Part shown: positions 6,449 to 55,825 of the stretch, one piece after another
Layout of the letters: the number at the start of each line of letters is the position of its first letter
Numbering within the stretch: position 1 is the first letter of the stretch
Source: Nitrospirota bacterium
Lineage (GTDB): Bacteria > Nitrospirota > UBA9217
Assembly (NCBI GenBank): GCA_963663225.1
Contig: OY760142.1
Location: 1,760,001 to 1,824,000, forward strand
DNA length: 64,000 nucleotides
Direction of reading: 5' to 3'
Position numbers and translations under genes: made by a program
The notes under the pieces: model-generated
Database searches by the model: none
What the model saw: the letters and a program-made list of their open reading frames with translations, nothing else
What the model was told of the DNA's origin: nothing

Positions 6449-6545
6449 GCAAGAACACTCGTGCACTGCACCATGGACTGCTGACGAATATCTTCAAATG
6501 TAGCGAAAGGCTTAATTCTGAGCAATGCAAATAGTGAGGTGCAAC

Positions 6546-12709: not shown

Positions 12710-12949
12710 ACATCCCTGGGCCGTGAAAATAAAGCGTCTGACGCATACGTCAACAACGTCGGGTGCCCGGCCGACTAGTTACGGTAACTGCAGGACCAAG
12801 TATAGCATCAATATGCCTCTTCGGGGAAGATTTCTTGCAGCTTTTTATGCTTTTTTCTGGTAAGAAAAGGCTTGCGCAGCGAAAAAATTTTCACCACGCA
12901 AGCCTCATATCATACGCACTACCCGCCGTGCAGTTTAAAACGGACGCAT

Positions 12950-40977: not shown

Positions 40978-41354
40978 TGAAAAACGTCCTGCTTGTGGAG
41001 GATTCAAAGTCTATTCGGTCCATGATGCGGGTATCACTGGAAGAAGCAGGCAACTATTTTTTTGTGGAGGCCGGGAGCGGCTTCGAGGCCCTGAAAGCCC
41101 TCCCTTCGCGCCGCTTCGATCTTATCATCACCGATATCAATATGCCCGACATCAACGGTCTGGAGCTGATCGGGTACGTAAAATCCAATCCGACCTATCG
41201 TGACATTCCTCTTATCATCGTTAGCACTGAAAAAAGCGCGGAAGACAAAAAACGGGGCCTGGCACTCGGGGCCGCCGGTTATGTGGTAAAACCATTTACC
41301 AAGGAAGAGCTCAGACACATGGTGACGGCCGTCCTGAAAGAGACGCTCGCGTAA
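40974..41354 (+). CDS. cheY: CheY-like response regulator
   Basis: LLVEDS, ITDINMPDING, IIVST, YVVKPF. Located immediately before cheA. Confidence 0.88.
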   Translation: MMKNVLLVEDSKSIRSMMRVSLEEAGNYFFVEAGSGFEALKALPSRRFDLIITDINMPDINGLELIGYVKSNPTYRDIPLIIVSTEKSAEDKKRGLALGAAGYVVKPFTKEELRHMVTAVLKETLA

Positions 41355-41425: not shown

Positions 41426-43435
41426 TTGAAACCAGACAAAAACCTGGAAGACTTTTTCGCCGAAGCGGAAGATATTCTGGCGTCAGCAAACCAGACACTG
41501 CTTTCAATCGAGACTGCCATGGATGAGGGCAGAACCGATCCCGATCTTGTCAATGCGCTGTTCCGTTCCGTCCATTCCTTTAAAGGGCTCGCGGGAATGT
41601 TCGAGCTGAAAGAACCGTCAACGCTTTCCCATAAACTGGAATTTTTTTTGGATGAGCTTCGTCTGGGCAAGACGAGACTGAACCGGGAAACATTCGACAC
41701 TCTTTCTGATACGCTCGCTCTGCTGAGGCGGCTGGTTCACCAGGCAGGCGCGGGGAAGGAGTCCGAGGATATTGCAGGGTTCCTCGGTCGCATTGATGGC
41801 GCCCTTGCGGTGAAAGTTTTTCCGGAGGCAGACCGGCCGCTGCAAGAAAAAATCAGCCTGGACGAGGGGATATTCCAGGTTTTGACCGAGTACGAAGAAC
41901 ACCGGTTGAAGGAGTGCGTCCGGGAACGCAAAAATCTGTTCGAGATCAAAGCGGCATTCCAGCTCAATGATTTTGAAGCGGGGATAAAGCAGCTTGCTGC
42001 AACGCTGAAAAAACATGGGGAAACCATCTGCACCCTGCCGACGGCGGGCGGGGACGGAGGGACCGGAATCGGCTTCACCATTGTTCTTGCCGCGACGGAA
42101 GACCGTGAATCGCTCGCAGCGGCACTTCCGCTGCCGAATGTAACGATCCAACAGATTGCCTATCGGGACGGACAAAAGATGGATGAGCAAAAGTCGGAAA
42201 CTGCCGCCCTGAAATCCATCAGCAATACGGTGCGGGTGGATATTTACAAACTCGACAATCTTATGAACATCGTGGGCGAGCTGCATCAAATCAAGAACAT
42301 TATGGGCAGGATTGCCAGGGAACTTCGGACCAAGGAAGGATTCATCAGCCACTCCGTGGATCTTCAGAAGGCGGAGCGCAGTCTGATACGGAAGCTGAAC
42401 GACCTTCAGTCCGGGATTCTTGAGGCCCGCATGGTCCCTATCGGCCAGATATTTACGCGCTTTTCCCAGGTGGTCAGGAAATACGCGAGAGATGCCGGCA
42501 AGGAAATCGACCTCCAGTTTTTCGGCGAGGAAACGCAGCTCGACAAACTCATGATTGAAGACCTTGCGGACCCGCTTATGCACCTCATCAGAAACGCCAT
42601 TGACCACGGCATTGAACCTCCGGATGTGCGGAGGAAGCGCGGAAAGCCGGAACAGGGAGTTGTAAAACTGACGGCGTTTCCCCGGGGAAACCAGGTTGTC
42701 ATCACGGTCGAGGACGACGGAGCGGGGATGGATCCGGAACGGATGCTGCGCACTGCCGTTGAAAAGGGGATGCTGAAACCGGATCATGGCCTTGTTCCCG
42801 AGCGAAACCACAAGGAAATTCTTGATCTGATTTTTCTTCCCGGTTTCACCACCCGCGAAACAGTAACGGAAATATCGGGGCGCGGTGTGGGCATGGATGT
42901 GGTAAAACGGAACGTTGCAAAACTTTCAGGGATCGTGGACATCTACAGTGAGTTGGAAAATGGAACGATTTTCACCCTGTTCCTCCCGATAACGCTTGCC
43001 ATCATTAAAGCACTTATCGTTGAATCGGGAGGCCAGATATTTGCCGTTCCCCTCACGTCCGTGGTCGAAATACTGCAGGTGGCGGCCCCCCAGATCGAAA
43101 CTGTGGAAGGGCAGGAAGTCATGGCTGTCAGGGAAAACACCGTGTCGCTCCTGCGGCTCGCCCGCACGTTCAATCTGCCTGAGGACCGGGAGCGCAGCGC
43201 ATTCTATGTGATTCTGGTGGGGCTGGCAGAACGGCGTCTCGGTATTATCGTTGAGGGCCTTCGGGACCAGCATGAAATCGTAATCAAGGCGCTCGGAAAG
43301 CGGTTCGCAGAAATGCAGGGGATCGCGGGGGCCACCGAACTGGGAGATCAGCGGGGCATGGTGCTTGTTCTCGATGTGGAATCACTGATAGAAGGATCGC
43401 TGAGAAAAACGGCGTCCGCCGGGCAGAAATTGTAA
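41426..43435 (+). CDS. cheA: Chemotaxis histidine kinase CheA
   Basis: HPt FRSVHSFKG, TVRVDIYKLDNLMNIVGEL, HLIRNAIDHGIE, DDGAG, FLPGFTT..ISGRGVGMDVV, LPITLAI, CheW domain. Confidence 0.97.
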   Translation: MKPDKNLEDFFAEAEDILASANQTLLSIETAMDEGRTDPDLVNALFRSVHSFKGLAGMFELKEPSTLSHKLEFFLDELRLGKTRLNRETFDTLSDTLALLRRLVHQAGAGKESEDIAGFLGRIDGALAVKVFPEADRPLQEKISLDEGIFQVLTEYEEHRLKECVRERKNLFEIKAAFQLNDFEAGIKQLAATLKKHGETICTLPTAGGDGGTGIGFTIVLAATEDRESLAAALPLPNVTIQQIAYRDGQKMDEQKSETAALKSISNTVRVDIYKLDNLMNIVGELHQIKNIMGRIARELRTKEGFISHSVDLQKAERSLIRKLNDLQSGILEARMVPIGQIFTRFSQVVRKYARDAGKEIDLQFFGEETQLDKLMIEDLADPLMHLIRNAIDHGIEPPDVRRKRGKPEQGVVKLTAFPRGNQVVITVEDDGAGMDPERMLRTAVEKGMLKPDHGLVPERNHKEILDLIFLPGFTTRETVTEISGRGVGMDVVKRNVAKLSGIVDIYSELENGTIFTLFLPITLAIIKALIVESGGQIFAVPLTSVVEILQVAAPQIETVEGQEVMAVRENTVSLLRLARTFNLPEDRERSAFYVILVGLAERRLGIIVEGLRDQHEIVIKALGKRFAEMQGIAGATELGDQRGMVLVLDVESLIEGSLRKTASAGQKL

Positions 43436-43501
43436 AAACGAAAAACGTGTCGTCTGTGAATTCCGACAGCTTGCCGCAGAATGCCGTTTACCGGGGCTTT
43501 C

Positions 43502-44293
43502 ATGTATAAAGAGTTTTACGGATTGGCTGAAAAACCATTTAACAAAACGCCGGATCCGCGTTTTCTGTACCAGAGCAGAAAACATGCAGAGGCGCTGGCG
43601 CGGCTGCAGCATGCGGTTGAAGAGCAGGACATTGTGCTGCTCACCGGCGAAATCGGATCGGGCAAAACCACGCTTTCCCGCGCCCTGATCGATTCGCTGG
43701 ATGATTCCTGCCAGCCCGTGCTGATTGTGAACCCCTGCCTGTCGCCGCTGCAACTTCTGCAGACGGTCGCCCTCCGGCTCGGCATACAGGGTGCGGGACG
43801 GTACCGGAACGACATCCTTGAGGGAATCAATGCGAAGCTCTATGAACTGTACGAAACAGGCAGGCAGCCCGTAATCATTATTGACGAATCGCAGCTTATC
43901 CCGGGCAAGGCAACCTTCGAGGAACTCAGGTTGCTGACGAACTTTCAGCTTGACGATCGGAATCTTACGGCACTCATCCTGATCGGACAGACTGAATTGC
44001 GAAAACGCCTGGAGCGCAGCCCATACCGGGCGCTTCGGCAGAGAATCAGCATGCAGTATCATCTCGGACCGCTTGATCAGGAAGAAACAGCCGCATATGT
44101 TCGCCACCGGCTGAAAATCGCGGGCAGGGAACAGCCGCTGTTCAGCGAGGAGGCGCTTGCGCTTCTGTGCAGACATTCGGAGGGCATTCCCCGTCTGATC
44201 AACATTATTGCCGGGAACGCACTCATTGAGGGTTTCGGCAGAGGGTCTGAACACATCGGACCCGAGATCATAGAAAGCGTTGTGATGGAATAA
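43502..44293 (+). CDS. ExeA/GspA/MshM-like AAA ATPase (ATPase domain only)
   Basis: MYKEFYGL.EKPF..TPDPRFLY, GEIGSGKTT, IIDESQ, LIGQTEL, ALRQRI, GIPRLIN. Confidence 0.92.
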   Translation: MYKEFYGLAEKPFNKTPDPRFLYQSRKHAEALARLQHAVEEQDIVLLTGEIGSGKTTLSRALIDSLDDSCQPVLIVNPCLSPLQLLQTVALRLGIQGAGRYRNDILEGINAKLYELYETGRQPVIIIDESQLIPGKATFEELRLLTNFQLDDRNLTALILIGQTELRKRLERSPYRALRQRISMQYHLGPLDQEETAAYVRHRLKIAGREQPLFSEEALALLCRHSEGIPRLINIIAGNALIEGFGRGSEHIGPEIIESVVME

Positions 44294-44347: not shown

Positions 44348-45007
44348 ATGGACATATTGAAAGCAAGAAAAAAAGCCGCCGAACAAAAGCGAAGCCGGAA
44401 AAAAACGGAACCGGAGCCTGCCGCCGAACCTCAGCGGCCGCAGGAAGAAACAGCCTATCCCGCTGAGCCGCGGGCAGACTCTCACCCGGTTGCCGACAAA
44501 AACGCGGGTCTTCCCGGCATGTCAGAACCGGCTGCAGAAGCTCCCGTGGAAGAACCAGCCTCGTCCGACTCCAAGGGAGAAGAGGCACAGGAAGAGATCG
44601 ATCTCCTTTCATTCCGTTTGGGCGGGGAGTCATACGCGCTGCTGGTAAAAGACGTTCGGGAAGTGCTGAAAGTCCGTTCTCTGACGCCGGTGCCGAATGC
44701 GCCTTCGTATATTATTGGCGTGACCGGGCTCAGAGGCGCAGTGTTGCCGGTGATCGACCTCTGCGCGCGGTTCGGTCTTGTTCCCGGTGTGCGGGATGAA
44801 AAATCCAGAATCATCGTCGTGGGCTCCTCTGAGGAAGACGTGGGACTTGTCGTGGATCGGGTAACGGGGGTTCTGAGAATCATGCCCGACGAAATCAGGC
44901 CAACGCCTGAACACGTCGAGCAGGGAGCGGCATTCCTGCGCGGGATCGTCCGAAAAGACGAAAAATTGTACATTCTTCTGGACCTCGAAAAGGCGGTTGC
45001 AGCATGA
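44348..45007 (+). CDS. cheW: CheW with acidic/Pro-rich N-terminal extension
   Basis: SFRLGGESYAL..VREV..TPVPNAP..GLRGAVLPVIDL..GLVVDRV. Confidence 0.92.
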   Translation: MDILKARKKAAEQKRSRKKTEPEPAAEPQRPQEETAYPAEPRADSHPVADKNAGLPGMSEPAAEAPVEEPASSDSKGEEAQEEIDLLSFRLGGESYALLVKDVREVLKVRSLTPVPNAPSYIIGVTGLRGAVLPVIDLCARFGLVPGVRDEKSRIIVVGSSEEDVGLVVDRVTGVLRIMPDEIRPTPEHVEQGAAFLRGIVRKDEKLYILLDLEKAVAA

Positions 45008-45135: not shown

Positions 45136-47226
45136 ATGAAAACATTAATTGACATGAATTTAAAGACACGCGCGGTGCTGCTGACGGCGGGAATCCTCCT
45201 GCTCGTTCTGGTGTTTAACACCCTGGTCAATATTACTGCGGCTACGAACAAGTACCGGGAGGCCCTGATCGCGCGGGCCACCGCGCTTGCAGAAGAGATT
45301 CGAAAAGATGTGTCAAAGGCGACGGCAGACGGCACTTCGTTGAGTGAGTTGGAAGAGATGGGAGCGCGGTTGCGACTGCTGATTGCCGAGGACCATGACC
45401 TCGCGGGTGCCAGGGTGTTGGATGCGAACGGAAGAGTGCTGTATGCCAGCGACCAGACGCCTGAAAACACGGTGCCGGGAGACGCAGCGAACAAGAAAGC
45501 GCTCGCGGCAAACGCTCCTCAATTGGAATATTACACAGACAACGCCGGAGGACGGTATGAAAAAATCATTCCTTTGAACGGTCCTGACGGGAAAAAAATC
45601 GGAGTGTTTGTGATAGCGATCAAGGAGGATGCGGTAAAGCGCCCGGCAGAAAGCATGCTTCTGCGGTCGCTGCTTGTCGGATTCATCAGTTTTGTGATTG
45701 CCATGGCCCTGATGTATTATTTTGCCAACCGGGGGATGCTGCCCATCGTCGAGATGGCAAAAAGCGCCAGCAAGATGGCGGCCGGCGACCTTTCGAGCAC
45801 CATTGAGGTCAAGGGCAAAACAGAGGTGACCAACCTGGTCAACGCAATCAATACGATGTCGGCGAACCTCAAAGAGATGCTCAGAAAGATCAGAGTGACC
45901 TGCGTTGGTTTGAACGATGCCATGAACCTGGTGAGCGGCGCCGCGCGCAAAATGAGCAAAGGCGCGCAGACCCAGCAGGAGGCGACCGATCAGGCAGCAA
46001 AGGTCGTGAATGAAATGGTCGCGTCCATCCGCGAGGTTGCCGGGGGAACTGATGAAATGTCCCACGCGGCCATGAACGCCTCGTCGTCCGCATCGGAAAT
46101 GGCGTCGTCCATAGAAGAAGTCGCACGGAACACCGGAACGCTAGCCGCGGCGGTTGAAGAGACGGCCTCCTCCGTCGGGCAGATGATCGCCTCCATCAAA
46201 CAAGTGTCGGAAAATACAGACGCAGTCGCCGCGTCCGCCGAACAGACATCATCCGCCATTACCCAGATGAGCGTTTCGGTGAGAGAGATCGAGCAGCGTG
46301 CGCGGGATTCCGCGCGACTGGCGGCAAAGGTGTCGCAGGATGCCTCGGAGCGGGGCATGGTCGCCGCCGCGGAGGCAATCAAAGGCATGCAGCATATCAA
46401 GGAAGCCGTGGAAGCCACTGCTTCCGTGCTGAACCGTCTCGGAACGCGTTCGCAGGAAATCGGCCAGATTCTGAAGGTCATTGACGACGTGACCGACCAG
46501 ACGAGCCTGCTGGCCCTGAATGCCGCCATTCTGGCCGCGCAGGCAGGAGACCGCGGCAGGGGATTTGCCGTCGTGGCTGATGAAATCAAAGACCTGGCGG
46601 AGCGCACCGCGTCATCCACTCAGGAGATCGCCGGACTTATTGCCTCGGTGCAGGAGGAAGCCGCCGAGAGCGTCCATGCCATGGACAAAGGGCTCAAGGC
46701 CGTGGAGGCGGGTTTTTCCCTGGTGAATGTGACCAGTGAAGTTCTGCAGCAGGTCGCGGACAGTTCGCGGCAGTCAACGGAGACCGCCCGAGCAATTGAA
46801 AAAACCACCGCAGAGCAGGCAAAGAGCGTATCGCAGATTACGGAATCCTCGGTGGGGATTGCGGGGCAGCTCGACCAGATTGCCCGCGCGTTGCAGGAAC
46901 AGCGCGCAGGAAGCGAACGGATAGCGCAGGCCGCGGAGCGCATGCGTGAAGTCACCCGCCAGGTGAAAATAGCCACGCAGGAACAGACTACGGGCGGCAG
47001 GCAGATCGCCGACGCGGTGGAATCAGTGACGGCCCAGGCCGGGCAGATTGCCCGCACGACGGCGGAGCAGAACACGGGGACCCAGCAGATAAACGAAACC
47101 ATCAACCGCATCCAGGGTATAACCCGGGACAGCATGGATGTGTCCATTGAGATGGAAATGGCCGTGCAGGTGATCAAGGAAAAGGTGGTTGCGCTTCAAG
47201 CCGAGTTGGATGGTTTTAAATATTAA
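45136..47226 (+). CDS. Methyl-accepting chemotaxis protein, long (~64-heptad) class
   Basis: Two TMs, HAMP, ~228 residues from HAMP end to hairpin tip. Tip [31 protein letters not shown]. Confidence 0.93.
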
Positions 47227-47365
47227 TCAGAGAACAGCGGATGCGGGACGGCCTGGCTGCGCGCAGGCGGGCCGGATACAGTCAATCTGACGCGGTGTTT
47301 CCTGCGACCATGGTTTTTTACCGCTCCGGCACCAGACCGCAGAAGGGTATTTCAAGGGAGGCCCT

Positions 47366-50161
47366 GTGAATATCGGCTTACGACAGAGACTGATTGTTTT
47401 AATTTTCTCCGGGCTTGTAGTGGCCATGGCAGCGATCGGAGTGTACCGGTACTTCATGGAGAAACAGGTCATTCTGAACATGACCCGCGCGGAGGGAGAG
47501 CGCTCCTGCAAACTCATGGCAGATATTGCCGTGCCGTATCTGCAGACATCGGATATTCATGGCCTGCTTGCTGTTACGCAAAAATTTTTGCGCACACCCG
47601 ATATTCTGGAAATTACCGTTCGGGACAAGGAAGGACGGCGTCTCGCGTATGTCACCAAGCAGGCCGTTCCGAACAACGCCATTACTGTCGGACCGGTTCC
47701 GGTTCTGTTCGATACAACGAAGCTCGGCGAGGTCAGCATGTCGGTTTACCCGGAGAAGATGGGAGACAGGCTCAAAGTATATGCTCTCAGCGCGTTGGTC
47801 GAAAACTTTTTCATCTTTGTGGTCCTGGCGGGCATTCTGGCGGTATTCATAACCCGCTCTATCACGAAACCGGTGAAGGAGCTTCGCAATGCCGTAAAAG
47901 AGCTGATCGACCAGAAAGATTTCACCCGGCGAGTAAAGGCGCACGGCCGTGACGAAATCGGGGAGCTTGCAACCGGAATAAATTACCTTATCGAGCGACT
48001 GGAGCAATTCATCGTCGAGATGAGCGATATCTCCGCGCGGATCAGCACGGTGAGCCCGGAACTGGTCCGGGAGGCGGGCGAAGCGAAAAAAAACGCGGAA
48101 GGCGCGGCCGAAGCCATCGCAGATGTTTCTTCTTCGGTTGAGGCGATGTCCGCGTCCCTGCAGTCCTTCTCGGAGACCGCGGAGAGTCTTTCCGCTTCGG
48201 CGGAAGAATCGTCATCCGCCATTCTGGAAATGAATGCGTCGAACCAGGAAGTTGCCGGCCACACGAACGAGCTTACCGCGTCCGTGGAAGACGTGACCGC
48301 GTCGGTGGCGGAAATGATTGCATCCATCCGTGAGGTCGGCGGCCACGTGGAGAGCCTCACCGCGGCGGCGGAACAGACGTCCGCCTCGGCAGTCGAAATC
48401 GAAGCCACGGTCCGTGAGGTCGAAGGGGCGGCGAAAGAGTCGTCATCGCTGTCCCAGCTTGTTTCCCGTGAAGCACAGGAAATCGGCGTCAAATCCATCC
48501 GGGAAACGGGAAAAGCCATCGACACGATCAAGGACGCCGTCAACCGCTATTCCGGTCTGGTGGCAAAGCTTGGACAGCGTTCAGTCGAAATCGGAAAAAT
48601 ACTGAACGTCATCGTGGAAGTGACGGAAAAAACAAACCTGCTTGCGTTGAATGCTTCCATTCTCGCGGCACAGGCGGGCGAACACGGCAGAGGGTTCAGC
48701 GTGGTGGCCGAAGAAATTAAGGCTCTTGCCGACCGCACGGCGGTTTCCGCGCAGGACATTGCAAAGCTCATTGCCGCGGTACAGAAGGAAGCCAAAGAGG
48801 CCGTGGCGGCAATGGCGGACAGCCTTGCGGCGGTAGAAGAAGGGGTGCAGCGATCCCGGGCGGCCGGTGCGGCATTGGACAAAATCCTGGCGACGTCCAC
48901 GCAATCCTCCGAAATGACAGCCATGATTGAGCGCGCAATGAACGAACAGGCGCGGGGAATCAAGCAGGTAAGTGAAGCCATCGCGAATGTAAAGCAGATG
49001 TCGGCGCAGATCATGGCCGCGACGCAGGCCCAGAGCAAGGGCACGGAGATGATACTCCAGAGCGCGGAGAGCATGCGGGACATCGCGCGTCATGTACGGA
49101 GCGCCATGGCCGAACAGACGCGCGGCGGAAAGCAGATCGCCGCCGCAGCTGAAAGCGTGACGGCGCATGCCGGGTCCATTGCGGCAGGCACCTGGGAACA
49201 GCGCCAGTCAGTGGCCAAAATCCAGGAATCCGTCAAAAAGATTCAGGACCTTCCCCGCCAGAGCGCTCGCCGTGTGGAAAGCATGGCAGCCTCCGTTGAG
49301 ACCCTGGGAGAGCAGGCAGCTCTGCTGAACCGGGAAATCGTCACCATGACGGTCCGGCGCGGGCGCCGATACATCGAAGGCGGCGCCTTGAAGATGGGCA
49401 TTGTTCCTCTCGACAACCCCGCAGAGATGCTTCGCCGTTTTACGCCGGTTGCGGAATATCTCTCCCGTACTCTCGCCAGAAAAGTGGAACTCTCCGTTGC
49501 CATGGACTTTGCACAAATGCTGACCGACCTTGAAGAGGATAAGATCGATTTGGCGTTTCTTACGCCTTCCCTGTATATCGAAGCGCAGAAAAAGGCAGGA
49601 GTGTCCCTGCTCGTCAAGGCGCTGCAAAACGGGGTCCCTTACACCCACGCGGCCATTGTTGCCCATGCCGACCGTCCCCTTGCCCGACTGGAGGACATCA
49701 AGGGAAAACGGTTCGCGTTCGGCAGCAGAAAGTCGACATTGACCCATCTGGTTCCCCGCGCCATGCTCGCTGAAGCGGGCGTCGGCCTCAGCGATATGCG
49801 AGAATTCGCCTTCCTCGGCCAGCAGGAAGCCATAGCAAAAGCCATCATTGCCGGAGAATACGATGCCGGCGGCATGTCCGAATCCACGGCAAAAATGTTT
49901 GAGGACCGGGGGCTGATAATTCTGAAGACCTCCATTGATGTCCCGGAAAAAAACATCTGCATTTCCAGACATCTGGATAAAAATACCAGCGATCTAATTA
50001 AGCAGGCGCTGCTGGCCCTGAACCGTGGACAAGAGGCGCACGCGACGATTCTGGGCAGCATAAATCCGAATTACTCCGGGTTTGAACCGGCGAGCGATGA
50101 AGAATATGACGGTGTCAGAAGGCTGCTTGCTAAGATACAGGAAACGGACACACAAGACTAA
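47366..50161 (+). CDS. Long-class MCP fused to a C-terminal PhnD/phosphonate-binding-type domain
   Basis: Two TMs, HAMP (GRDEIGEL), tip [29 protein letters not shown]. From ~49388: [61 protein letters not shown]. Confidence 0.9.
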
Positions 50162-50241: not shown

Positions 50242-50775
50242 GTGAGACGTACTTTGGCCAGAGATAAAAAACCAGTGGTTACGGACGACGCCATGCAGGT
50301 TGTGACCTTTCAGATAGGCGTCGAGGAGTATGGACTCGATATCCAGTTCATAACCGAGATCATCCGTCCGCTCAAGATCACGCCGCTTCCCCATATGCCG
50401 GAATTCGTCGAAGGGGTGATCAATCTCCGGGGGACCGTCATTCCCATCATTGATTTGCGGAAACGTTTTTTGCCGGGCGCGGCTGTCCCGAACCCAAAGA
50501 CCATGCGCATGGTCATTCTCCGGGGTGCCGTCCCCGCCTTGTCGGGGACAGCCAGAGACCTGGTCGGATTTATTGTGGATGCGGCGAAGGAAGTCCTCAG
50601 CATACCGCGCAAGGACATCGATTCAGCGCCACCGCGCGCGGTTGGTCGTGATGTCGAATTCATTGCCGGGATGGGCAAGGTAGGCGGCCGTCTCATTGTA
50701 CTTCTCGACAGCAGCAAGATTCTGAGCCAGCAGGAAGGGTCAGCCCTGGCGGAGGTCGGAAATGCCGGATATTGA
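50242..50775 (+). CDS. cheW: CheW
   Basis: QVVTFQIG.EEYGLDI..EII..ITPLP..PEFVEGVINLRGTVIPIIDLRKRF. Confidence 0.93.
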   Translation: MRRTLARDKKPVVTDDAMQVVTFQIGVEEYGLDIQFITEIIRPLKITPLPHMPEFVEGVINLRGTVIPIIDLRKRFLPGAAVPNPKTMRMVILRGAVPALSGTARDLVGFIVDAAKEVLSIPRKDIDSAPPRAVGRDVEFIAGMGKVGGRLIVLLDSSKILSQQEGSALAEVGNAGY

Positions 50776-52753
50776 ACGGCTTGGTGAAAAACTCGCGAGC
50801 AGGAACGTTGAAGAGCGGCGTGAGGCAACCGTGGAGCTTGGCCGAGGGGGACAGTCTGCGGTTTCCCTGCTCTTTCGCGCCATGGCGGACGTTGACTGGC
50901 GGGTGAGGAAGACCGCGGTCGAAGCCATCGTATCGATCGGCGGTGAAAACGTTGTAAACAGGCTGCTCCGGTCCCTGAGTGCTCAGGACAATGCGGGAAC
51001 GCGGAATTCCGCCATTGAGGCCCTTGTCCAGATCGGAAAACCGGCGGTCCCCGCACTGTTCCCCATGCTGGAAACCCCCGATGCCGACGTCCGCAAGTTT
51101 GTCGTTGACATCCTCGGCGATATCGCCGATCCTCGCTCGCTGCAGGCCCTGGTGGAAAAACTTGACGATGCGGATGAAAATATCCGGGTGGCTGCCGCGG
51201 AAGCTCTCGGCAAGCTGCGCGACCCGCGGGCTGTAGACGCACTGCTTGCCTGTCTTGGCCGTTCAGATCAGGGCTGGCTGGACTATGCCGCGGCGGAGGC
51301 GCTGGGGTCGATCGGCGATGAACGCGCGCTCGAACCGCTGCTGGCTGCCCTGAACCGGCCGGGTCTCCGGGAGCCGGTCATCGGGTCGCTCGGCAGGGTC
51401 GGCAATGTGCATACCCTTGCCCCCCTGATCGCCGGCCTTGCCGATTCCCTCCGGATTGTTCGCGAGGCGTCGTGCATGGCGCTTGCCGCAATTGCAGAAA
51501 AGAGCAGCGAGCAGGAGCAACAGACCGTACGGGAAACCGTGCGCAGCGCCATGAGCGGACAGGCAGCGGACTTTCTGGAGGAGATGCTCGCCACAAGCAC
51601 GGGCGGTCTTCAGAAAGCGGTGATCTCCCTTCTTGGCTGGGGCGGGAAGGAGAGTTCGATTCGCAGGCTGCTGTCGCTGCTGACGGAGGAGGAATTTGAA
51701 GAACCGGTGGCACAGTCGCTCCGGTTCCTTGAGAGAAACCAGGCGCCTTTGTTGTTCGATCATCTCGCCAGTGCGAATGCGCTGGTACGGCGTACTGTTG
51801 CGCGTGTTTTGGGAGATATCCGCAGTCTCGAAGCTGAGATGCCGCTGCTCAACCTGCTGCAGGATGAAAACGGCCATGTGCGAAGCGCCGCGGCGCTTGC
51901 GCTCGGACGGATTCAAAGCAGGCGTGCGGTCAAACCGCTGCTCGAACTGCTGATGGATGAATACGAAAGCGTGCAGGAGTCGGCGATCCACGCGCTGGCC
52001 GCCGTCGGCGATGAGTCCCTGCTGGACGAACTGACTCGGGACTTTTCAACACGGGACACTCTTTTACGCAGAAACATCGTCCTTCTTCTCGGCAGGTTTA
52101 CCGCGGACAAGGCCGTGACGGCCCTGTCTTTTGCACTGAAGGATGAAAATCCGGAGGTAAGAAAAGCGGCAGTCCATGCGCTCGGCAGCGTATCCACCGG
52201 GCAGGCTTTCAAGTCGCTCCTGTTTGCGGCCACGGACGATGATCCTGAGGTAAGGATGCTGGCGGCAGAGGCTCTTGCAGGACTGAACGCGCATGGGGCT
52301 TTTCCCGCGCTTGTTTCCCTTCTTGAAGATACCGATCTTTGGGTCCGGGCTGCTGCGGCCCGCGGACTGTGCCGGATCGGCAACGAACTGGCGGGCGAAA
52401 TCCTTCTTGCGCATTTAAAAAACGCGACAGATGTTTTTCTGTTTGCCATTGTGGAGTCGCTGGGAAAACTGAAGGTGCCCGCGGCCCGGGAACCGCTTCT
52501 TGCTCTTATCGGTCACCCGGACCCGGAGGTGCGAAGGACCGCGCTGGCGGCCCTTTCCGGCTACCGGGGGCCCGCCGTGCGGGAGGCAGTTCAGTCCTGT
52601 CTGACGGATGCTCACTGGATCGTCAGAAAGGCGGCCGTCGAAGCACTGAAGCAGGAGCAGGATTCGGTCCTTGAATCCGTCTTTGAGAAAATCGCCCTCA
52701 ACGATCCGGATGCGACCGTCCGCCAGGCGGCGAAAGAGGCATTGAAACGATAA
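50762..52753 (+). CDS. HEAT/PBS-lyase repeat protein
   Basis: Many D.D..VR..A..ALG repeats over 663 aa. Translationally coupled to cheW and cheR. Confidence 0.92.
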   Translation: MPDIERLGEKLASRNVEERREATVELGRGGQSAVSLLFRAMADVDWRVRKTAVEAIVSIGGENVVNRLLRSLSAQDNAGTRNSAIEALVQIGKPAVPALFPMLETPDADVRKFVVDILGDIADPRSLQALVEKLDDADENIRVAAAEALGKLRDPRAVDALLACLGRSDQGWLDYAAAEALGSIGDERALEPLLAALNRPGLREPVIGSLGRVGNVHTLAPLIAGLADSLRIVREASCMALAAIAEKSSEQEQQTVRETVRSAMSGQAADFLEEMLATSTGGLQKAVISLLGWGGKESSIRRLLSLLTEEEFEEPVAQSLRFLERNQAPLLFDHLASANALVRRTVARVLGDIRSLEAEMPLLNLLQDENGHVRSAAALALGRIQSRRAVKPLLELLMDEYESVQESAIHALAAVGDESLLDELTRDFSTRDTLLRRNIVLLLGRFTADKAVTALSFALKDENPEVRKAAVHALGSVSTGQAFKSLLFAATDDDPEVRMLAAEALAGLNAHGAFPALVSLLEDTDLWVRAAAARGLCRIGNELAGEILLAHLKNATDVFLFAIVESLGKLKVPAAREPLLALIGHPDPEVRRTALAALSGYRGPAVREAVQSCLTDAHWIVRKAAVEALKQEQDSVLESVFEKIALNDPDATVRQAAKEALKR

Positions 52754-53614
52754 ATGTTTGAAGAGCAGAACATTCCGCTGCCGGATGATGTGTTCAGGCT
52801 TCTCCGGGATTTCGTCCATGCCTATTGCGGGATTTTTTTCGATGACAGCTCCAAGTTTCTGCTGCAGCGCCGTCTCGTGCGACGCCTTGAGCAGCATCGG
52901 CTCAAGAGCTTTGAAGAATACTACCATTTCCTCCGTTACGACCGGAAACGGGAGGAGGAACTTTCCGTCCTTATTGACAGCCTCACCACCAACGAAACCT
53001 ATTTTTTCCGGGAGAGTGCGCAGTTGCGGGCGTTTTCCGAAGAAATTCTGCCGGAATTGCGGCAAACGTTCGCTGATCGAAAGACCCTTCGGATATGGAG
53101 CGCCGGCTGTTCCACGGGAGAAGAGCCGTATACCATCGCCATCCTTCTGCTGGAATCAGGCGACTGGTGGCGCGACTGGCAGGTTGAAATTCTCGGTAGC
53201 GACATCAATCAGCGGGTGTTGCACGCGGCGCGCAGAGGCGTCTATAAAAAGAGCGCGCACCGGGTGACGAGCCCGGAAATGCTTGCGAAATATTTTACGG
53301 AGGAGAACGGCGACTACCGTATCATCGACGCCGTCAGGGACCTGGTGTCCTTCAGCTCGGTGAACCTGCTGGATCCGGGCAAAATCAGCCTGATCGGCAC
53401 GATGGATGTCATTTTCTGCCGGAATGTGATCATCTATTTTGACAAGGAAGCGAAAAAAAAAGTGATCGAAACGTTTTCCCGAAAGCTCAGAGAAGGAGGA
53501 TATCTCCTGCTGGGACATTCAGAATCGCTCATTAATATTTCGAACGCCTTCGAGCTCAGGACGCTCAAGCACGACATGGTCTACCGGAAACCGCTGCGTG
53601 CGAAAATGGGATGA
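52754..53614 (+). CDS. cheR: Chemotaxis methyltransferase CheR
   Basis: LTTNETYFFRE, IWSAGCSTGEEPYTIA, GSDI, DVIFCRNVIIYFD, GYLLLGHSESL. Confidence 0.97.
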   Translation: MFEEQNIPLPDDVFRLLRDFVHAYCGIFFDDSSKFLLQRRLVRRLEQHRLKSFEEYYHFLRYDRKREEELSVLIDSLTTNETYFFRESAQLRAFSEEILPELRQTFADRKTLRIWSAGCSTGEEPYTIAILLLESGDWWRDWQVEILGSDINQRVLHAARRGVYKKSAHRVTSPEMLAKYFTEENGDYRIIDAVRDLVSFSSVNLLDPGKISLIGTMDVIFCRNVIIYFDKEAKKKVIETFSRKLREGGYLLLGHSESLINISNAFELRTLKHDMVYRKPLRAKMG

Positions 53615-53680: not shown

Positions 53681-54763
53681 ATGAAGAAGATAACAGTATT
53701 GGTTGTTGATGATTCGGCCTACAACAGAACCGTCATTGCCCAGATGCTCGAGCAGGACCCCGGGATCACCGTCGTCGGGAGCGCCGTGGACGGTGTTGAT
53801 GCCATCGCGAAGACGCTCCGCCTCAGGCCCGATGTCATCACGCTTGATCTTGAAATGCCGGATATGGACGGCTTTTCATTTCTGCGATGGCTTATGAAAG
53901 AGCGGCCGACGCCCGTGCTCGTGCTTTCAGCGCGCTCCGACAGCCGAAGCGTGTTCCGCGCCCTGGAACTCGGCGCAGTCGACTTTCTGGCAAAACCGGA
54001 AGCGCGCATTTCCCGAAGCATAGAAAAAATCAAGGACGACCTTGTGGCCAGGGTGCATGCGGTGCTGAATCTTGAAATGACCAAAGTGAAGTCCGCGATC
54101 AGCCTTCTGTCCCGGGAGCAGGCGCCCCCGTCAGTCAGAAAAGAAGACGAGAAGAGGCGGGAACCGGGGCCGATTGAAGTTGTTGCCATCGCTGCATCCA
54201 CCGGAGGTCCGCCGGCGCTTCAGGCGATTCTCACCGCGCTTCCTTCAGATTTCAATGCCGGCATTGTGATCACCCAGCATATGCCCGCAGGTTTTACGAA
54301 AAGTTTCGCAGAGCGCCTGAACAAAATATCCTCTCTTGTCGTGAGCGAGGCCACGGACGGCGACCGGGTTGATCCGGGCACGGCGCTGATTGCGCCGGGC
54401 GGGCACCATCTCCTGCTGAAAAGAGACCAGGACGGACTGCGGGCGGAGATTGTTCCTCCCGACCCTTCAGACAAACACGTGCCTTCTGCGGACCGCATGA
54501 TGGCGTCTGTTGCCGATGTTTGCGGGACCGCAACGCTCGGGGTCGTTTTGACCGGCATGGGCCGGGACGGTGCGGAAGGGGTGATTGCCATCAAGAACCG
54601 GCAGGGACAATGCCTGGCCGAAAGCGAGGAAAGCGCCGTTATTTTCGGCATGCCTCAGGAAGCCATCCATACCGGAGCGGTTGACAAGGTGCTGCCGCTT
54701 GACAGAATTGCGGACGAGATCCAGAGACGGTGCAAATCAGGGAAAAACCAGATGCTGGAATGA
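53681..54763 (+). CDS. cheB: Chemotaxis methylesterase CheB (receiver + catalytic domain)
   Basis: VVDDSA, TLDLEMP, AASTGGP, QHMP, PSAD, LTGMGRDG, FGMP. Confidence 0.97.
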   Translation: MKKITVLVVDDSAYNRTVIAQMLEQDPGITVVGSAVDGVDAIAKTLRLRPDVITLDLEMPDMDGFSFLRWLMKERPTPVLVLSARSDSRSVFRALELGAVDFLAKPEARISRSIEKIKDDLVARVHAVLNLEMTKVKSAISLLSREQAPPSVRKEDEKRREPGPIEVVAIAASTGGPPALQAILTALPSDFNAGIVITQHMPAGFTKSFAERLNKISSLVVSEATDGDRVDPGTALIAPGGHHLLLKRDQDGLRAEIVPPDPSDKHVPSADRMMASVADVCGTATLGVVLTGMGRDGAEGVIAIKNRQGQCLAESEESAVIFGMPQEAIHTGAVDKVLPLDRIADEIQRRCKSGKNQMLE

Positions 54764-54997: not shown

Positions 54998-55825
54998 TTG
55001 ATGGAGAAGGAACCCGCATCAATTTCCAAAAAAGTTGAAGAGTTTCTCCAGGTTTTCAAAAAAGGTGAAGAGTTCACCCATGAACTGCTTAAGGAGAATG
55101 AGAAGCTCCGGTACCGGGTCGCCCAGCTTGAGGAGGTGACCAAGTTTTCCGGCAGGGAAGGCGACCTCAGGCTGAACACGCTGGAGGAGAAGATACGGTT
55201 CCTGGAAGAGGAAAACAAAAGCCTTCTTACCCGTTACCGCGTTGTGGAAGAGGAAAACAAGGATTTCGCGAACCGCTATATAGAGGTTGAAGCCGAGAAC
55301 AACAATCTTGCCAACCTGTATGTGGCAAGCTATCAGCTCCACTCCACGCTCGATTTCGGCGAATCGCTTAAGATCATTCTTGAAATCGTCATGAACCTGA
55401 TCGGCGCCGAAGAGTTTTCGATCATGATGCTGGACGAAAAAACAAATGAACTGACGATCGTGGCCCAGGAAGGCATGAGCTCCGAGGCGCGTCCGGCCAT
55501 CAAGCTGGGCGAGGGAATCATCGGCTCGTCCGCGAAAGCCGGCGAGTCATTCTACCGTGAAGGAGATCCCACGAACGTGACGGGTGTGGACTATTTGCAT
55601 CCGCTTGTTTGCATCCCTCTCAAGATCAAAGAGCATGTCATCGGCGTGATTGTAGTTTACAAGCTCCTGGTGCAGAAGCAGGCATTTACTGGCGTGGATT
55701 ACGAGCTTTTCACCATGCTTGCCGGCCATGCCGCCACGGCCCTATTTTCTTCCAAACTGTATTCGCAGTCCGAACGGAAGCTCACGACGATCCAGAGCTT
55801 TCTCGATCTGCTGAAAGAAAAATAA
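54998..55825 (+). CDS. Coiled-coil + GAF domain protein with no output domain
   Basis: Heptad N-terminus (LLKENEKLRYRVAQLEE). NLANLYVASYQLHSTLD..CIPLKIKEHVIGVI..DYELF..LAGHAATAL. Confidence 0.85.
   Translation: MMEKEPASISKKVEEFLQVFKKGEEFTHELLKENEKLRYRVAQLEEVTKFSGREGDLRLNTLEEKIRFLEEENKSLLTRYRVVEEENKDFANRYIEVEAENNNLANLYVASYQLHSTLDFGESLKIILEIVMNLIGAEEFSIMMLDEKTNELTIVAQEGMSSEARPAIKLGEGIIGSSAKAGESFYREGDPTNVTGVDYLHPLVCIPLKIKEHVIGVIVVYKLLVQKQAFTGVDYELFTMLAGHAATALFSSKLYSQSERKLTTIQSFLDLLKEK

What the first reader, a model, noticed from the sequence alone, without database searches (positions are those of the whole stretch)
47366..50161. Chemoreceptor with a solute-binding-protein (PhnD-type) domain fused on the cytoplasmic side
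Seen: the order is TM-periplasmic sensor-TM-HAMP-long signalling hairpin, followed in frame by a complete ~255-aa PhnD/PtxB-like domain (~49388-50150) with no further TM helix. That places the domain in the cytoplasm, at the membrane-proximal end of the return helix. Known: PhnD-fold domains are normally periplasmic ABC-transporter subunits, and MCP C-termini usually carry at most a short CheR-tethering peptide. Seen: the usual anion-binding motifs are altered (S-T-S-G reads S-T-L-T; G-S-H reads G-Q-Q). Inference: this may be a dual-input receptor that integrates an external cue with an internal ligand, perhaps no longer phosph(on)ate, or it may use the fold as a protein-docking module.
Basis: partly seen in the sequence, partly recalled or inferred. 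Interest (0 to 1): 0.8.

Follow-up and report, generated by a model that had tools for sequence, protein, structure and literature searches.

The report
Chemoreceptor with cytoplasmic phosphite-binder-like domain
This is a real membrane chemoreceptor that carries, on its inner end, a domain normally found as a periplasmic nutrient-binding protein, probably giving the cell a second, internal sensing input; the design is conserved across sulfur-metabolising Nitrospirota but seems undescribed.

Summary
ORF 47366-50161 (+) encodes 931 aa: TM1, a ~115-aa periplasmic PAS/Cache-like domain, TM2, HAMP, a complete 64-heptad signalling hairpin, a ~15-aa linker, then a full-length Phosphonate-bd (PF12974) domain. 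No further hydrophobic segment follows, so that domain is cytoplasmic. It models confidently (pLDDT 91) as a type II binding-protein fold nearest the phosphite binder PtxB.

It is not a frameshift artefact. The same single ORF occurs in at least 97 of 401 sampled genomes of the phylum and in 32 named Nitrospirota/Thermodesulfovibrionales records. It is the constant receptor of a conserved cluster: DUF4388-CheY-CheA-ATPase-CheW-MCP-CheW-HEAT-CheR-CheB-GAF.

Across the family the pocket (S-T-S-S, G-H-H-D, a Phe cap) is strongly conserved, which points to an intracellular small oxyanion ligand. The window's protein and two close relatives share a remodelled pocket (S-T-L-T, G-Q-Q-E, a Lys cap). 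Their domain is still under purifying selection (dN/dS 0.07-0.09), so this is a re-tuned or re-purposed domain, not a decaying one.

The ligand is unknown. C-terminal cytoplasmic sensor domains on chemoreceptors have precedents (DcrH hemerythrin, PilZ), so this is a new variant of a known kind.

The parts
47355..47361 (+). Shine-Dalgarno AGGGAGG, 4 nt before the GTG start
   Evidence: Read directly. It supports the 931-aa start over the 911-aa start seen in some database members.
47366..50161 (+). Whole gene: 931-aa chemoreceptor with a C-terminal PtxB/PhnD-like domain
   Evidence: ORF; Pfam; homologues.
47390..47446 (+). TM1 (about residues 9-27)
   Evidence: Hydropathy peak of 2.57; lies inside helix 5-60 of the model.
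47447..47791 (+). Periplasmic sensor region (about residues 28-142): a long helix, a short helix and four beta strands, PAS/Cache-like
   Evidence: Secondary structure and pLDDT of 82-87. No Pfam hit of its own. Weak tblastn matches to the N-termini of YfiN-like diguanylate cyclases. NCBIfam hits to DgcN/YfiN and to the YfiR-associated kinase, well under their cut-offs.
47792..47860 (+). TM2 (about residues 143-165)
   Evidence: Hydropathy peak of 2.58; lies inside helix 132-183.
47846..48007 (+). HAMP domain (residues 161-214)
   Evidence: Pfam PF00672, E 3.3e-12.
48008..49342 (+). Signalling hairpin, 64-heptad class: N-arm to about residue 436, tip 437-442 (AGEHGRGF), C-arm 443-659 with a break at the invariant Pro630
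   Evidence: MCPsignal E 1.2e-40. HAMP end to tip is 225 residues, or 32.1 heptads, so a symmetrical C-arm would end at residue 664. Helices. P630 is invariant in 81 sequences.
49343..49387 (+). Short linker (residues 660-674, [10 protein letters not shown]...)
   Evidence: Residues 665-669 fall below pLDDT 50. This is among the least conserved segments (majority fraction 0.49), and its length varies by only a few residues among the 12 aligned sequences displayed.
49388..50155 (+). Cytoplasmic PtxB/PhnD-like type II binding-protein domain (residues 675-930)
   Evidence: PF12974, profile positions 1-242 of 242, E 4.7e-56. Domain model pLDDT 91.3. Top Foldseek matches are PtxB 5o37/5o2j/5jvb, TM 0.78-0.84, probability 1.00. 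Profile against PDB sequences gives PtxB at E 2.1e-52.
49733..49744 (+). Pocket motif S790-T791-L792-T793 (family majority S-T-S-S; PtxB S124-T125-S126)
   Evidence: Column counts; mapping from the HMMER alignment onto residues named in PMC5700983.
49817..49828 (+). Pocket motif G818-Q819-Q820-E821 (family majority G-H-H-D; PtxB H155 aligns with position 820)
49949..49951 (+). K862, at the position of the PtxB capping Tyr203 (family majority Phe, 67 of 81)
39817..40977 (+). DUF4388 protein with an MshE-type c-di-GMP-binding motif; first gene of the cluster
   Evidence: Pfam PF14332. NCBIfam NF053729, 46.8 bits against a cut-off of 38. Syntenic in relatives.
40974..41354 (+). CheY-like single-domain response regulator
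   Evidence: ORF; Pfam Response_reg, E 6.2e-27.
41426..43435 (+). CheA histidine kinase
   Evidence: Hpt, H-kinase_dim, HATPase_c and CheW domains.
43481..44293 (+). AAA_22 ATPase, similar to the XrtA/PEP-CTERM-associated ATPase (below that model's cut-off)
   Evidence: 240.7 bits against a cut-off of 324.5.
44348..45007 (+). CheW (first copy)
45136..47226 (+). Second 64-heptad chemoreceptor (696 aa), which ends where the hairpin ends and has no extra domain
   Evidence: N-arm of 225 residues, and 36% identity to the fused receptor over residues 92-658.
50242..50775 (+). CheW (second copy)
50762..52753 (+). HEAT-repeat protein (NblB/CpcE-like repeats)
52754..53614 (+). CheR methyltransferase
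53681..54763 (+). CheB methylesterase with receiver domain
54998..55825 (+). GAF-domain protein; last conserved gene of the cluster
   Evidence: synteny at 58-65% identity in 12 of 20 loci.

Best explanation
The gene encodes a genuine transmembrane, 64-heptad-class methyl-accepting chemoreceptor. A complete PtxB/PhnD-like (PF12974) type II binding-protein domain follows the signalling hairpin, tethered by a ~15-residue linker. The domain therefore sits in the cytoplasm beside the HAMP/membrane-proximal end of the bundle.

My reading is that it is a second, intracellular sensory module. Binding of a small cytoplasmic ligand closes the two lobes. Through the short tether this alters packing of the C-terminal helix near HAMP, and so biases CheA control together with the periplasmic input.

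In the family at large the ligand is most likely a small oxyanion. The PtxB oxyanion-binding residues S-T-S and His are kept, while the polar cap (Asp/Tyr) and one phosphite-contacting Tyr (PtxB Y49) are replaced by Leu/Phe and Phe. In the window's own lineage six pocket positions have been replaced as a set that is held constant under purifying selection. This protein has therefore probably switched ligand, or less likely kept the fold for a ligand-independent role.

The receptor is the constant receptor of a conserved, probably non-flagellar chemosensory cluster in Dsr-bearing Nitrospirota.

What is shown: architecture, topology, fold, conservation, synteny and selection. What is inferred: ligand binding, ligand class and the coupling mechanism.
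For: **Architecture and topology.** Established.

**Fold.** The domain model has pLDDT 91.3. Foldseek finds PtxB at TM 0.78-0.84. The A2 profile against PDB sequences gives PtxB at E 2.1e-52.

**Not an artefact.**
- All 87 database relatives carry PF00015 plus PF12974, and 81 of the 87 are 881-970 aa long.
- By my hand count, at least 97 of 401 sampled genomes of the phylum hold the domain in an open frame of 800 aa or more. The count covers the 150 listed matches of 415.
- 32 of 80 genome-contig loci have 640 or more in-frame residues upstream of the domain. All 32 come from Nitrospirota/Thermodesulfovibrionales-type records.
- 51 of 51 full-length homologues have the same two hydrophobic segments.

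**Pocket constraint.**
- The signature L-[ED]-F-[YF]-H / S-T-S-S / H-H-D / F-N persists in members only 32-42% identical in the receptor part.
- Eight positions were fixed in advance from the PtxB structure paper. Their mean conservation is 0.853, against a domain mean of 0.706. Only 550 of 20,000 random sets of eight reach that value, or 245 of 20,000 without the window's nearest relatives.

**The periplasmic domain varies while the C-terminal domain stays.** TM2 lies at about residue 136-140 in the window's clade and at about 158-186 in other clades.

**The same C-terminal domain sits on other receptor types.** These include 646-655-aa HAMP-MCP forms, an 828-aa form and a 543-aa MCP without HAMP in a gammaproteobacterial MAG.

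**The window's lineage.** An identical derived signature occurs in the window, G050 and G221. dN/dS for the domain is 0.074 and 0.092, against 0.059 and 0.108 for the C-arm.

**Short tether.** The linker is short and varies by only a few residues in the 12 sequences displayed.

**Precedent.** DcrH and Tlp1/Aer carry sensory domains after the hairpin (passages of PMC13401364).
Against: - No ligand was identified and no binding was tested.
- The window's own protein lacks three of the eight PtxB-defined contacts: S792L, H820Q and F862K. It also differs from the family majority at S793T, H819Q and D821E. It may therefore bind nothing.
- About a dozen of its nearest relatives each deviate differently. 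This could mean relaxed constraint on the pocket in that clade rather than re-tuning.
- In that clade the domain is less conserved than the receptor part (60-68% against 75-81% identity).
- The pocket-conservation test is only moderately strong (about 1-3% of random sets reach the observed value). Related sequences are not independent.
- Even the family consensus lacks the Asp/Tyr cap and one phosphite-contacting Tyr (PtxB Y49, Phe in the family) that PtxB needs for tight phosphite binding. A Tyr-to-Phe change of the cap weakened binding about 1000-fold in Te_PtxB (PMC5700983). A PtxB-like ligand cannot be assumed.
Confidence: 0.6

Rival explanations
1. The domain is a protein-docking or scaffolding module. 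It would recruit a cluster component (CheR/CheB, as a bulky analogue of the C-terminal pentapeptide tether, or the HEAT-repeat, ATPase or DUF4388 proteins), or it would organise receptor arrays. Small-molecule binding would be absent or secondary.
For: - It occupies the position where other receptors carry a CheR/CheB tether. Neither receptor in the cluster ends in an xWxxF-type pentapeptide.
- The window's protein has lost key anion-binding residues, yet the domain stays under purifying selection.
- The cluster always carries extra, uncharacterised partners.
Against: - The positions most conserved across the whole family are those that line the PtxB ligand pocket. That is what ligand binding predicts, not surface docking.
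- The same domain is attached to receptors of other lengths and in another phylum, and the one such locus whose neighbourhood I checked (L051) shows none of these cluster genes.
- No partner was tested.
Confidence: 0.2
2. In the window's lineage the domain is a ligand-blind remnant kept only for folding, stability or array geometry. The family's ancestral function was ligand sensing, but it has been lost here.
For: - Six substitutions fall at positions otherwise 77-98% conserved.
- Neighbouring lineages of the same genus show other, different disruptions.
Against: - dN/dS of 0.07-0.09 over 246 codons, as low as in the signalling helix.
- The derived signature is identical in three genomes and in one database relative that is 88% identical in the domain.
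- The cap Phe is replaced by Lys or Arg in 9 of 81 sequences, 8 of them among the pocket-divergent relatives. This looks like a substitution with a new role rather than random decay.
Confidence: 0.15
3. Artefact: two adjacent genes (a receptor and a periplasmic binding protein) wrongly joined by a sequencing or assembly error. Alternatively, the domain is in fact exported.
For: None found. Some database members are annotated 20 residues shorter (911 aa), but that concerns the start codon only.
Against: - The window lies in a one-contig, 3.26-Mb genome.
- The single ORF recurs in independent assemblies.
- There is no hydrophobic segment and no signal-peptide-like stretch between the hairpin and the domain.
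- Standalone relatives at 30-38% identity do carry signal-peptide-like N-termini and have different pocket signatures.
Confidence: 0.02

Closest known systems
PtxB phosphite-binding proteins (P. stutzeri 5o2j/5o37, Trichodesmium 5jvb, Prochlorococcus 5lv1) and the wider PhnD/HtxB/AioX/ArrX group (Pfam PF12974)
   Same: - Same fold: Foldseek TM 0.78-0.84.
- Full-length Pfam match.
- The family consensus keeps S-T-S-S, the pocket His and the D-A-G-G-x-x-E segment.
   Different: - It is an internal C-terminal domain of a receptor with no signal peptide, so it is cytoplasmic.
- There are no ABC-transporter genes among the cluster neighbours annotated, about 39.8-55.8 kb.
- It is the only hit over the PF12974 cut-off in the genome.
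- PtxB's Asp16, Tyr49 and cap Tyr203 are Leu, Phe and Phe in the family.
- The window additionally has S792L, H820Q and F862K.
- It scores 117 bits against the PhnD equivalog cut-off of 261.
DcrH of Desulfovibrio vulgaris (C-terminal hemerythrin) and Azospirillum Tlp1/Aer (C-terminal PilZ); also the CZB domain of TlpD (recalled)
   Same: Same design principle: periplasmic domain, HAMP, signalling hairpin, then an extra cytoplasmic sensory domain at the C-terminus (passages of PMC13401364).
   Different: The added domain is of an unrelated fold. It belongs to a family otherwise known as periplasmic, and its ligand is unknown. The receptor is of the 64-heptad class and sits in a cluster with HEAT, GAF, DUF4388 and ATPase genes.
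Binding-protein-dependent sensors such as AioX-AioS, and receptors stimulated by periplasmic binding proteins (review PMC8050422)
   Same: A PF12974-type binding protein serves signalling rather than transport (passages seen).
   Different: In those systems the binding protein is a separate periplasmic protein that docks on the sensor's outer domain. Here it is covalently fused on the cytoplasmic side.
Myxococcus xanthus Che7 system with the HEAT-repeat protein Cpc7 (recalled; not retrieved beyond one listing)
   Same: A chemosensory cluster that includes a HEAT-repeat (phycobilin-lyase-like) protein and probably controls something other than flagella.
   Different: I did not compare sequences. 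The resemblance is recalled and covers gene content only.

Membership tests
Methyl-accepting chemotaxis proteins (MCP) | MCPsignal domain with the conserved hairpin tip | tested here: met
   PF00015, E 1.2e-40, 139.7 bits against a cut-off of 34.6. Tip motif AGEHGRGF at residue 437. The tip region is the most conserved part of the protein (majority fraction 0.89).
Methyl-accepting chemotaxis proteins (MCP) | Two transmembrane helices flanking an outer domain, followed by HAMP | tested here: met
   Hydropathy, HAMP at E 3.3e-12 and model helices 5-60 and 132-183. No dedicated topology predictor was available.
Methyl-accepting chemotaxis proteins (MCP) | Heptad class 64H (32 heptads per arm) | tested here: met
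   225 residues from the HAMP end to the tip, or 32.1 heptads. The neighbouring 696-aa receptor has the same count and ends at the predicted arm end. The count rests on my own choice of HAMP end and tip residue.
Methyl-accepting chemotaxis proteins (MCP) | Methylation sites served by CheR/CheB | tested here: inconclusive
   Six motif-like [ASTG]xx[EQ][EQ]xx[ASTG] sites lie in the two arms. CheR and CheB are in the cluster. Real sites cannot be told from sequence.
Phosphonate-bd / PhnD-PtxB binding proteins (PF12974) | Full-length profile match and type II binding-protein fold | tested here: met
   TIGR01098 subfamily: 113.5 bits against a cut-off of 112.05.
Phosphonate-bd / PhnD-PtxB binding proteins (PF12974) | Exported (signal peptide or lipoprotein) partner of an ABC transporter | tested here: not met
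   It is an internal domain after a cytoplasmic hairpin, with no hydrophobic segment before it. The neighbours are che genes. I did not search the genome for PhnC/PhnE.
Phosphonate-bd / PhnD-PtxB binding proteins (PF12974) | S-T-S ... H oxyanion motif | tested here: not met
   The window has S-T-L and Gln at the His position. The family majority does meet it: S790 in 79 of 81, T791 in 76 of 81, S792 in 62 of 81 and H820 in 72 of 81.
PtxB (phosphite-specific) | Capping Tyr held by an Asp on lobe 1 (the P-H...pi contact) | tested here: not met
   By alignment the cap is Lys in the window and Phe in 67 of 81 homologues. The Asp position is Leu in 75 of 81.
PhnD (equivalog TIGR03431) | Score over the curated cut-off | tested here: not met
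   117.4 bits against a cut-off of 261.1.
Chemoreceptors with a C-terminal cytoplasmic sensor domain (DcrH, Tlp1 type) | A folded extra domain after the signalling hairpin | tested here: met
Chemoreceptors with a C-terminal cytoplasmic sensor domain (DcrH, Tlp1 type) | The extra domain binds a signal and modulates kinase control | not testable with these tools
   This needs binding and kinase assays.

The most novel reading that the evidence does not exclude
The C-terminal domain is a cytoplasmic sensor for a pyramidal or tetrahedral oxyanion of the cell's own energy metabolism. Sulfite, the central intermediate of Dsr-type sulfur metabolism and a close shape analogue of phosphite, is the most attractive candidate. 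Phosphate, phosphite or arsenite are alternatives.

On this reading a whole class of Nitrospirota would couple their intracellular sulfur or phosphorus state to a non-flagellar chemosensory pathway. That pathway contains c-di-GMP-binding, HEAT and PEP-CTERM-ATPase-like proteins and may control surface or exopolysaccharide behaviour. The window's lineage would be a natural specificity switch: Ser to Leu, His-His to Gln-Gln, and the Phe cap to Lys.

The only support is circumstantial:
- a PtxB-like pocket with a hydrophobic cap;
- the window's genome encodes DsrA (552 bits, over the cut-off);
- in the 401 sampled genomes, the families with the domain are largely the families with DsrA and the families without it lack DsrA. 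Examples: f1 58/63 against 56/63; f9 0/76 against 0/76; f10 0/28 against 0/28; f17 0/40 against 0/40.

This pattern may be no more than shared ancestry. The domain tally also counts all relatives at E <= 1e-20, not only fused ones.
Probability: 0.15. Interest if true: 0.85.

Novelty: new variant of a known kind. Interest (0 to 1): 0.6.

Why it matters
Chemoreceptors are mostly studied as sensors of the outside world, and few classes of cytoplasmic add-on sensor are known (PAS, hemerythrin, PilZ, CZB). This would add a binding-protein fold of the PhnD/PtxB family, otherwise known only from the periplasm, as a conserved intracellular input wired straight onto the end of the signalling bundle.

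It marks a chemosensory pathway that is conserved across Dsr-bearing Nitrospirota and has no known function. These organisms are hard to grow and their signalling is essentially unstudied.

The family also offers a ready-made comparison for working out ligand specificity and the coupling mechanism: a canonical pocket against the window's remodelled pocket, both under selection. A defined ligand could yield a new cytoplasmic biosensor scaffold.

Tried and rejected
- **Self-association.** A job on two copies of the domain with alignment A2 returned 'no answer' (score 0.00, controls not run). It says nothing either way.
- **Promoter and terminator scan of the cluster.** It gave no more sites than shuffles do (8 against 6.0 +/- 2.4, and 27 against 20.2 +/- 4.9). 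I therefore make no operon claim beyond co-direction and short gaps.
- **Literature.**
  - 'chemoreceptor' + 'Phosphonate-bd' gave 1 paper, on AioX.
  - 'chemoreceptor' + 'C-terminal' + 'PhnD' gave 3 papers. I saw the listing only, and none is on this topic by title or abstract.
  - A set of Pfam names gave 13 papers, of which 12 were listed. None of those 12 holds both MCPsignal and Phosphonate-bd.
  - The Geobacter che-gene comparison (PMC2577667) has no occurrence of 40+24H, HEAT or phosphonate.
  - PMC3543383 and PMC8235581 mention the 40+24H/64H class only as counts.
  - A search for Cpc7 was swamped by unrelated 'heat' papers.
  - The library lacks most subscription journals, so 'not described' means 'not found in these searches'.
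- **Frameshift or gene-join artefact, and a periplasmic location of the domain.** Both were considered and rejected (see the rivals).
- **Model coordinates.** They were not available in the script box, so I made no pocket-geometry or docking analysis.
- I did not use them. The conserved single ORF in many assemblies made them unnecessary.
Full report
**1. What is in the sequence**

The window holds an uninterrupted ORF at 47366-50161 on the + strand, 931 aa, starting with GTG. A strong Shine-Dalgarno, AGGGAGG, lies at 47355-47361, four bases before the start. Some database members of the same 90% cluster are annotated 20 residues shorter (911 aa). That start would fall inside the first hydrophobic segment, so I keep the GTG.

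Pfam finds three domains:
- HAMP at residues 161-214
- MCPsignal at 401-545
- a complete Phosphonate-bd domain (PF12974) at 677-914, covering profile positions 1-242 of 242, E 4.7e-56

NCBIfam places the last domain just over the phosphate/phosphite/phosphonate binding-protein subfamily cut-off (113.5 against 112.05 bits). It falls far under the PhnD equivalog cut-off (117 against 261).

**2. Topology**

Kyte-Doolittle windows of 19 residues give two hydrophobic segments only, about residues 9-27 and 143-165. Nothing after residue 200 exceeds 1.07.

The full-length AlphaFold model was built on 81 sequences (mean pLDDT 77). It shows, in order:
- helix 5-60
- a short helix and four strands (80-127)
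- helix 132-183
- one long hairpin: 197-436, tip 437-442, then 443-626 and 629-659
- a floppy linker (665-669 below pLDDT 50)
- an alpha/beta domain at 675-930

From the end of HAMP to the tip there are 225 residues, or 32.1 heptads. A symmetrical return arm would end at residue 664. The extra domain thus starts about a dozen residues after a complete 64-heptad bundle.

The neighbouring receptor (45136-47226, 696 aa) has the same arm length and simply stops there. With HAMP and the hairpin in the cytoplasm and no further membrane segment, the binding-protein-like domain must be cytoplasmic. It hangs next to the membrane-proximal end of the bundle.

**3. The fold**

I modelled residues 662-931 on a domain-only alignment of 46 sequences (A2). 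The result has pLDDT 91.3 and pTM 0.84. Foldseek against the PDB puts the phosphite-binding proteins PtxB first (5o37, 5o2j, 5jvb, 5lv1; TM 0.78-0.84, probability 1.00). ArrX, PhnD, AioX and HtxB follow. A profile of A2 against PDB sequences agrees, with PtxB at E 2.1e-52.

**4. It is not an assembly artefact**

- The window lies in a one-contig, 3.26-Mb genome.
- A search with residues 640-931 returned 87 cluster representatives. All carry both PF00015 and PF12974, and 81 of the 87 are 881-970 aa long.
- In 401 sampled genomes of the same phylum, 187 have a relative of the domain at E <= 1e-20. By my hand count of the 150 listed matches (of 415), at least 97 genomes hold it in an open frame of 800 aa or more.
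- In the named genome collection, 32 of the 80 best loci have 640 or more in-frame residues upstream of the domain. All 32 are records titled Nitrospirota, Nitrospirae, Nitrospira sp., Nitrospiraceae or Thermodesulfovibrionales/-ia.
- All 51 full-length homologues I could cut out have the same two hydrophobic segments.

Below about 38% identity the relatives are standalone proteins of roughly 280-400 aa in stop-to-stop frame. They have signal-peptide-like N-termini and different pocket signatures, and they occur mostly in sulfur-oxidising Proteobacteria.

**5. Genomic setting**

The receptor sits in a co-directional cluster:
- DUF4388 protein with an MshE-type c-di-GMP-binding motif (39817-40977)
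- CheY (40974-41354)
- CheA (41426-43435)
- AAA_22 ATPase resembling the PEP-CTERM-associated ATPase (43481-44293)
- CheW (44348-45007)
- the plain 64H receptor
- the fused receptor
- CheW (50242-50775)
- HEAT-repeat protein (50762-52753)
- CheR (52754-53614)
- CheB (53681-54763)
- GAF protein (54998-55825)

I examined 20 loci taken from 20 genomes of many families of the phylum. In 14, CheW-HEAT-CheR-CheB lies downstream of the fused receptor. In 17, CheW lies upstream, mostly with CheA and the ATPase. L051 and L053 show none of these genes, and several loci are cut by contig ends.

A second plain receptor is present in some loci and absent in others (L035, L039, L046, L050, L052). The fused receptor is therefore the constant one.

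The genome has 17 MCPsignal matches and four CheA genes. Three of its four flagellin matches lie at 0.27-0.30 Mb, near two other CheA genes at 0.32 and 0.34 Mb; the fourth is at 1.26 Mb, near a third CheA. All are far from this cluster at 1.80 Mb. I therefore think this pathway controls something other than flagella. That is an inference from gene content.

**6. The pocket**

I used the HMMER alignment to P. stutzeri PtxB and the residues named in the structure paper: D16, Y49, Y94, S124-T125-S126, H155 and the cap Y203 (PMC5700983, passages read). The table shows what the 81 aligned homologues and the window carry at the corresponding positions.

| Position | PtxB residue | Family majority (of 81) | Window |
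|---|---|---|---|
| 682 | D16 | Leu, 75 | Leu |
| 715 | Y49 | Phe, 76 | Phe |
| 759 | Y94 (HMMER pairs it with 760; 759 is the neighbouring aromatic) | Tyr 46, Phe 18 | Tyr |
| 790 | S124 | Ser, 79 | Ser |
| 791 | T125 | Thr, 76 | Thr |
| 792 | S126 | Ser 62, Thr 14, Leu 5 | Leu |
| 793 | S127 (not a named contact) | Ser, 73 | Thr |
| 819 | T154 (not a named contact) | His, 68 | Gln |
| 820 | H155 | His, 72 | Gln |
| 821 | D156 (not a named contact) | Asp, 76 | Glu |
| 862 | Y203 (cap) | Phe 67, Lys 7 | Lys |

The family thus keeps the oxyanion-binding S-T-S and His of PtxB/PhnD. It has exchanged two Tyr (Y49 and the cap Y203) and the cap's Asp partner for hydrophobic residues.

This signature persists in members that share only 32-42% identity in the receptor part. 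The eight positions fixed in advance from the paper are more conserved than random sets of eight from the domain. The observed mean is 0.853 against a domain mean of 0.706, and 550 of 20,000 random sets reach it. Without the window and its 11 nearest relatives, 245 of 20,000 reach it. Sequences are related, so this is supportive, not proof.

**7. The window's own pocket**

The full 18-column signature is identical in the window, in the two closest same-genus genomes (G050, G221) and in database relative P0002. Other members of the genus and the next dozen relatives each deviate in a different way. More distant genera are canonical.

Nei-Gojobori dN/dS values:

| Comparison | Domain (246 codons) | C-arm (223 codons) |
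|---|---|---|
| Window vs G050 | 0.074 | 0.059 |
| Window vs G221 | 0.092 | 0.108 |

The domain is thus being kept by selection in this lineage, in its derived state. I read this as a change of ligand, or a change of role, rather than decay. The scatter of different signatures in neighbouring lineages, and the lower identity of the domain than of the receptor part in that clade (60-68% against 75-81%), leave relaxed constraint on the pocket as a live alternative.

**8. Other evidence for a sensory role**

- The periplasmic region differs between clades. TM2 lies at about residue 136-140 in the window's clade and at about 158-186 elsewhere. The N-terminal sequences of the two groups are too divergent for tblastn to match them, while the C-terminal domain is kept.
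- The same kind of domain is also found at the C-terminus of shorter receptors: 646-655-aa HAMP-MCP forms, an 828-aa form in Nitrospirota, and a 543-aa form without HAMP in a gammaproteobacterial MAG.
- In the 50%-identity representative library, the best 150 hits of the domain profile include proteins of 830-1085 aa and 610-670 aa with the domain at the very end. They also include about 555-aa proteins with two stretches, and many standalone forms of about 280 aa. In all, 1,204 proteins score E <= 1e-30.
- The linker is among the least conserved segments of the protein (majority fraction 0.49). In the 12 sequences displayed it varies in length by only a few residues. That fits mechanical coupling.

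**9. Mechanism proposed**

Shown: the architecture, location, fold, pocket conservation, synteny and selection.

Inferred: a small cytoplasmic ligand binds between the two lobes. Lobe closure pulls on or repacks the end of the C-terminal helix next to HAMP and shifts the kinase-control state. The receptor thereby integrates an outer signal (PAS/Cache-like domain) with an inner one.

The ligand class (small oxyanion) is inferred from the retained S-T-S/His. The identity of the ligand is unknown. Sulfite is an attractive guess. It has the shape of phosphite without the P-H hydrogen, the genome encodes DsrA, and the families of the phylum that carry the domain are largely those that carry DsrA. 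That co-distribution may only reflect ancestry.

**10. Comparison with what is known**

The design principle, an extra cytoplasmic sensor after the hairpin, is known from DcrH (hemerythrin) and Azospirillum Tlp1/Aer (PilZ), as described in passages of PMC13401364. It is also known from the CZB domain of TlpD (recalled).

PF12974 proteins that serve signalling are known, but as separate periplasmic proteins, for example AioX with AioS (review PMC8050422, passages).

I found no paper describing a chemoreceptor with a C-terminal PhnD/PtxB-like domain. The library lacks most subscription journals. Public annotation names these proteins either 'methyl-accepting chemotaxis protein' or 'phosphate/phosphite/phosphonate ABC transporter substrate-binding protein'. 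The latter name is misleading.

I file the protein as a member of the MCP family and of Pfam PF12974. I do not file it as PhnD or PtxB, because the location, transporter partnership, cap residues and, in this protein, the S-T-S/His motif are not met.

**11. Verdict**

This is a new variant of a known kind. Interest is 0.6: a chemoreceptor specialist would find it notable and directly testable, but the principle has precedent and the ligand is unknown.

Noticed in passing
window 47366-47875 (N-terminal 170 aa); loci L093, L095, L123, L125, L127: The receptor's TM-sensor-TM module weakly matches (20-23% identity, E 1e-6 to 1e-13) the N-termini of upstream ORFs in five proteobacterial loci. The four scanned are YfiN-like diguanylate cyclases (GGDEF; three with HAMP). 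All five ORFs lie directly upstream of standalone, signal-peptide-bearing PhnD-like proteins. A similar sensor and a PhnD-like protein thus occur as a periplasmic pair there and as one polypeptide, on opposite sides of the membrane, here.
   Followed up: partly
L051:7755-9704, L089:2810-4774, L092:2837-4774, L088:2291-4774, L091:3119-4747: Other receptor types carry the same kind of C-terminal domain: 646-655-aa HAMP-MCP-PF12974 proteins and an 828-aa form in Nitrospirota, and a 543-aa MCP-PF12974 protein without HAMP in a gammaproteobacterial MAG. Their pocket signatures differ from the main family (S-T-G-S, S-H-D).
   Followed up: partly
window 39817-40977: The DUF4388 protein at the head of the cluster scores over the cut-off for an MshE-related c-di-GMP-binding motif (NF053729, 46.8 against 38 bits). 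This hints that the pathway is tied to c-di-GMP.
   Followed up: no
window 43481-44293: An AAA_22 ATPase sits between CheA and CheW and is conserved there in most related loci (50-62% identity). It resembles the XrtA/PEP-CTERM system-associated ATPase but scores below that model's cut-off (240.7 against 324.5 bits). This is an unusual member of a che cluster.
   Followed up: partly
window 50762-52753 and 54998-55825: A 663-aa HEAT-repeat protein (NblB/CpcE-like repeats, below the cut-offs) and a GAF protein are conserved parts of the cluster. The GAF protein is among the best conserved genes in it (58-65% identity in 12 of 20 loci).
   Followed up: partly
L036 (G021:C55), two matches at 5765-6514 and 12789-13541: One genome carries two fused receptors about 7 kb apart in the same cluster (frames of 993 and 968 aa). 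Several other genomes also show two or three long-frame matches.
   Followed up: no
protein representatives P0107, P0113, P0122, P0125 and others; about 550-aa frames: There are proteins of about 540-590 aa with two matched stretches to the domain profile, that is, tandem double PhnD-like proteins. They are common in the same phylum.
   Followed up: no
database cluster of the window's protein: Three of six members of the 90% cluster are annotated as 911 aa rather than 931 aa. That start lies inside the first transmembrane segment. The Shine-Dalgarno before the GTG at 47366 favours the longer form.
   Followed up: yes
own genome G000:C1:2927637-2928800 (outside the window): The DsrA match (552 bits) is reported with one TAA inside the match. 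The same is reported for many relatives. Most likely the match runs past the gene's stop codon. I did not look.
   Followed up: no
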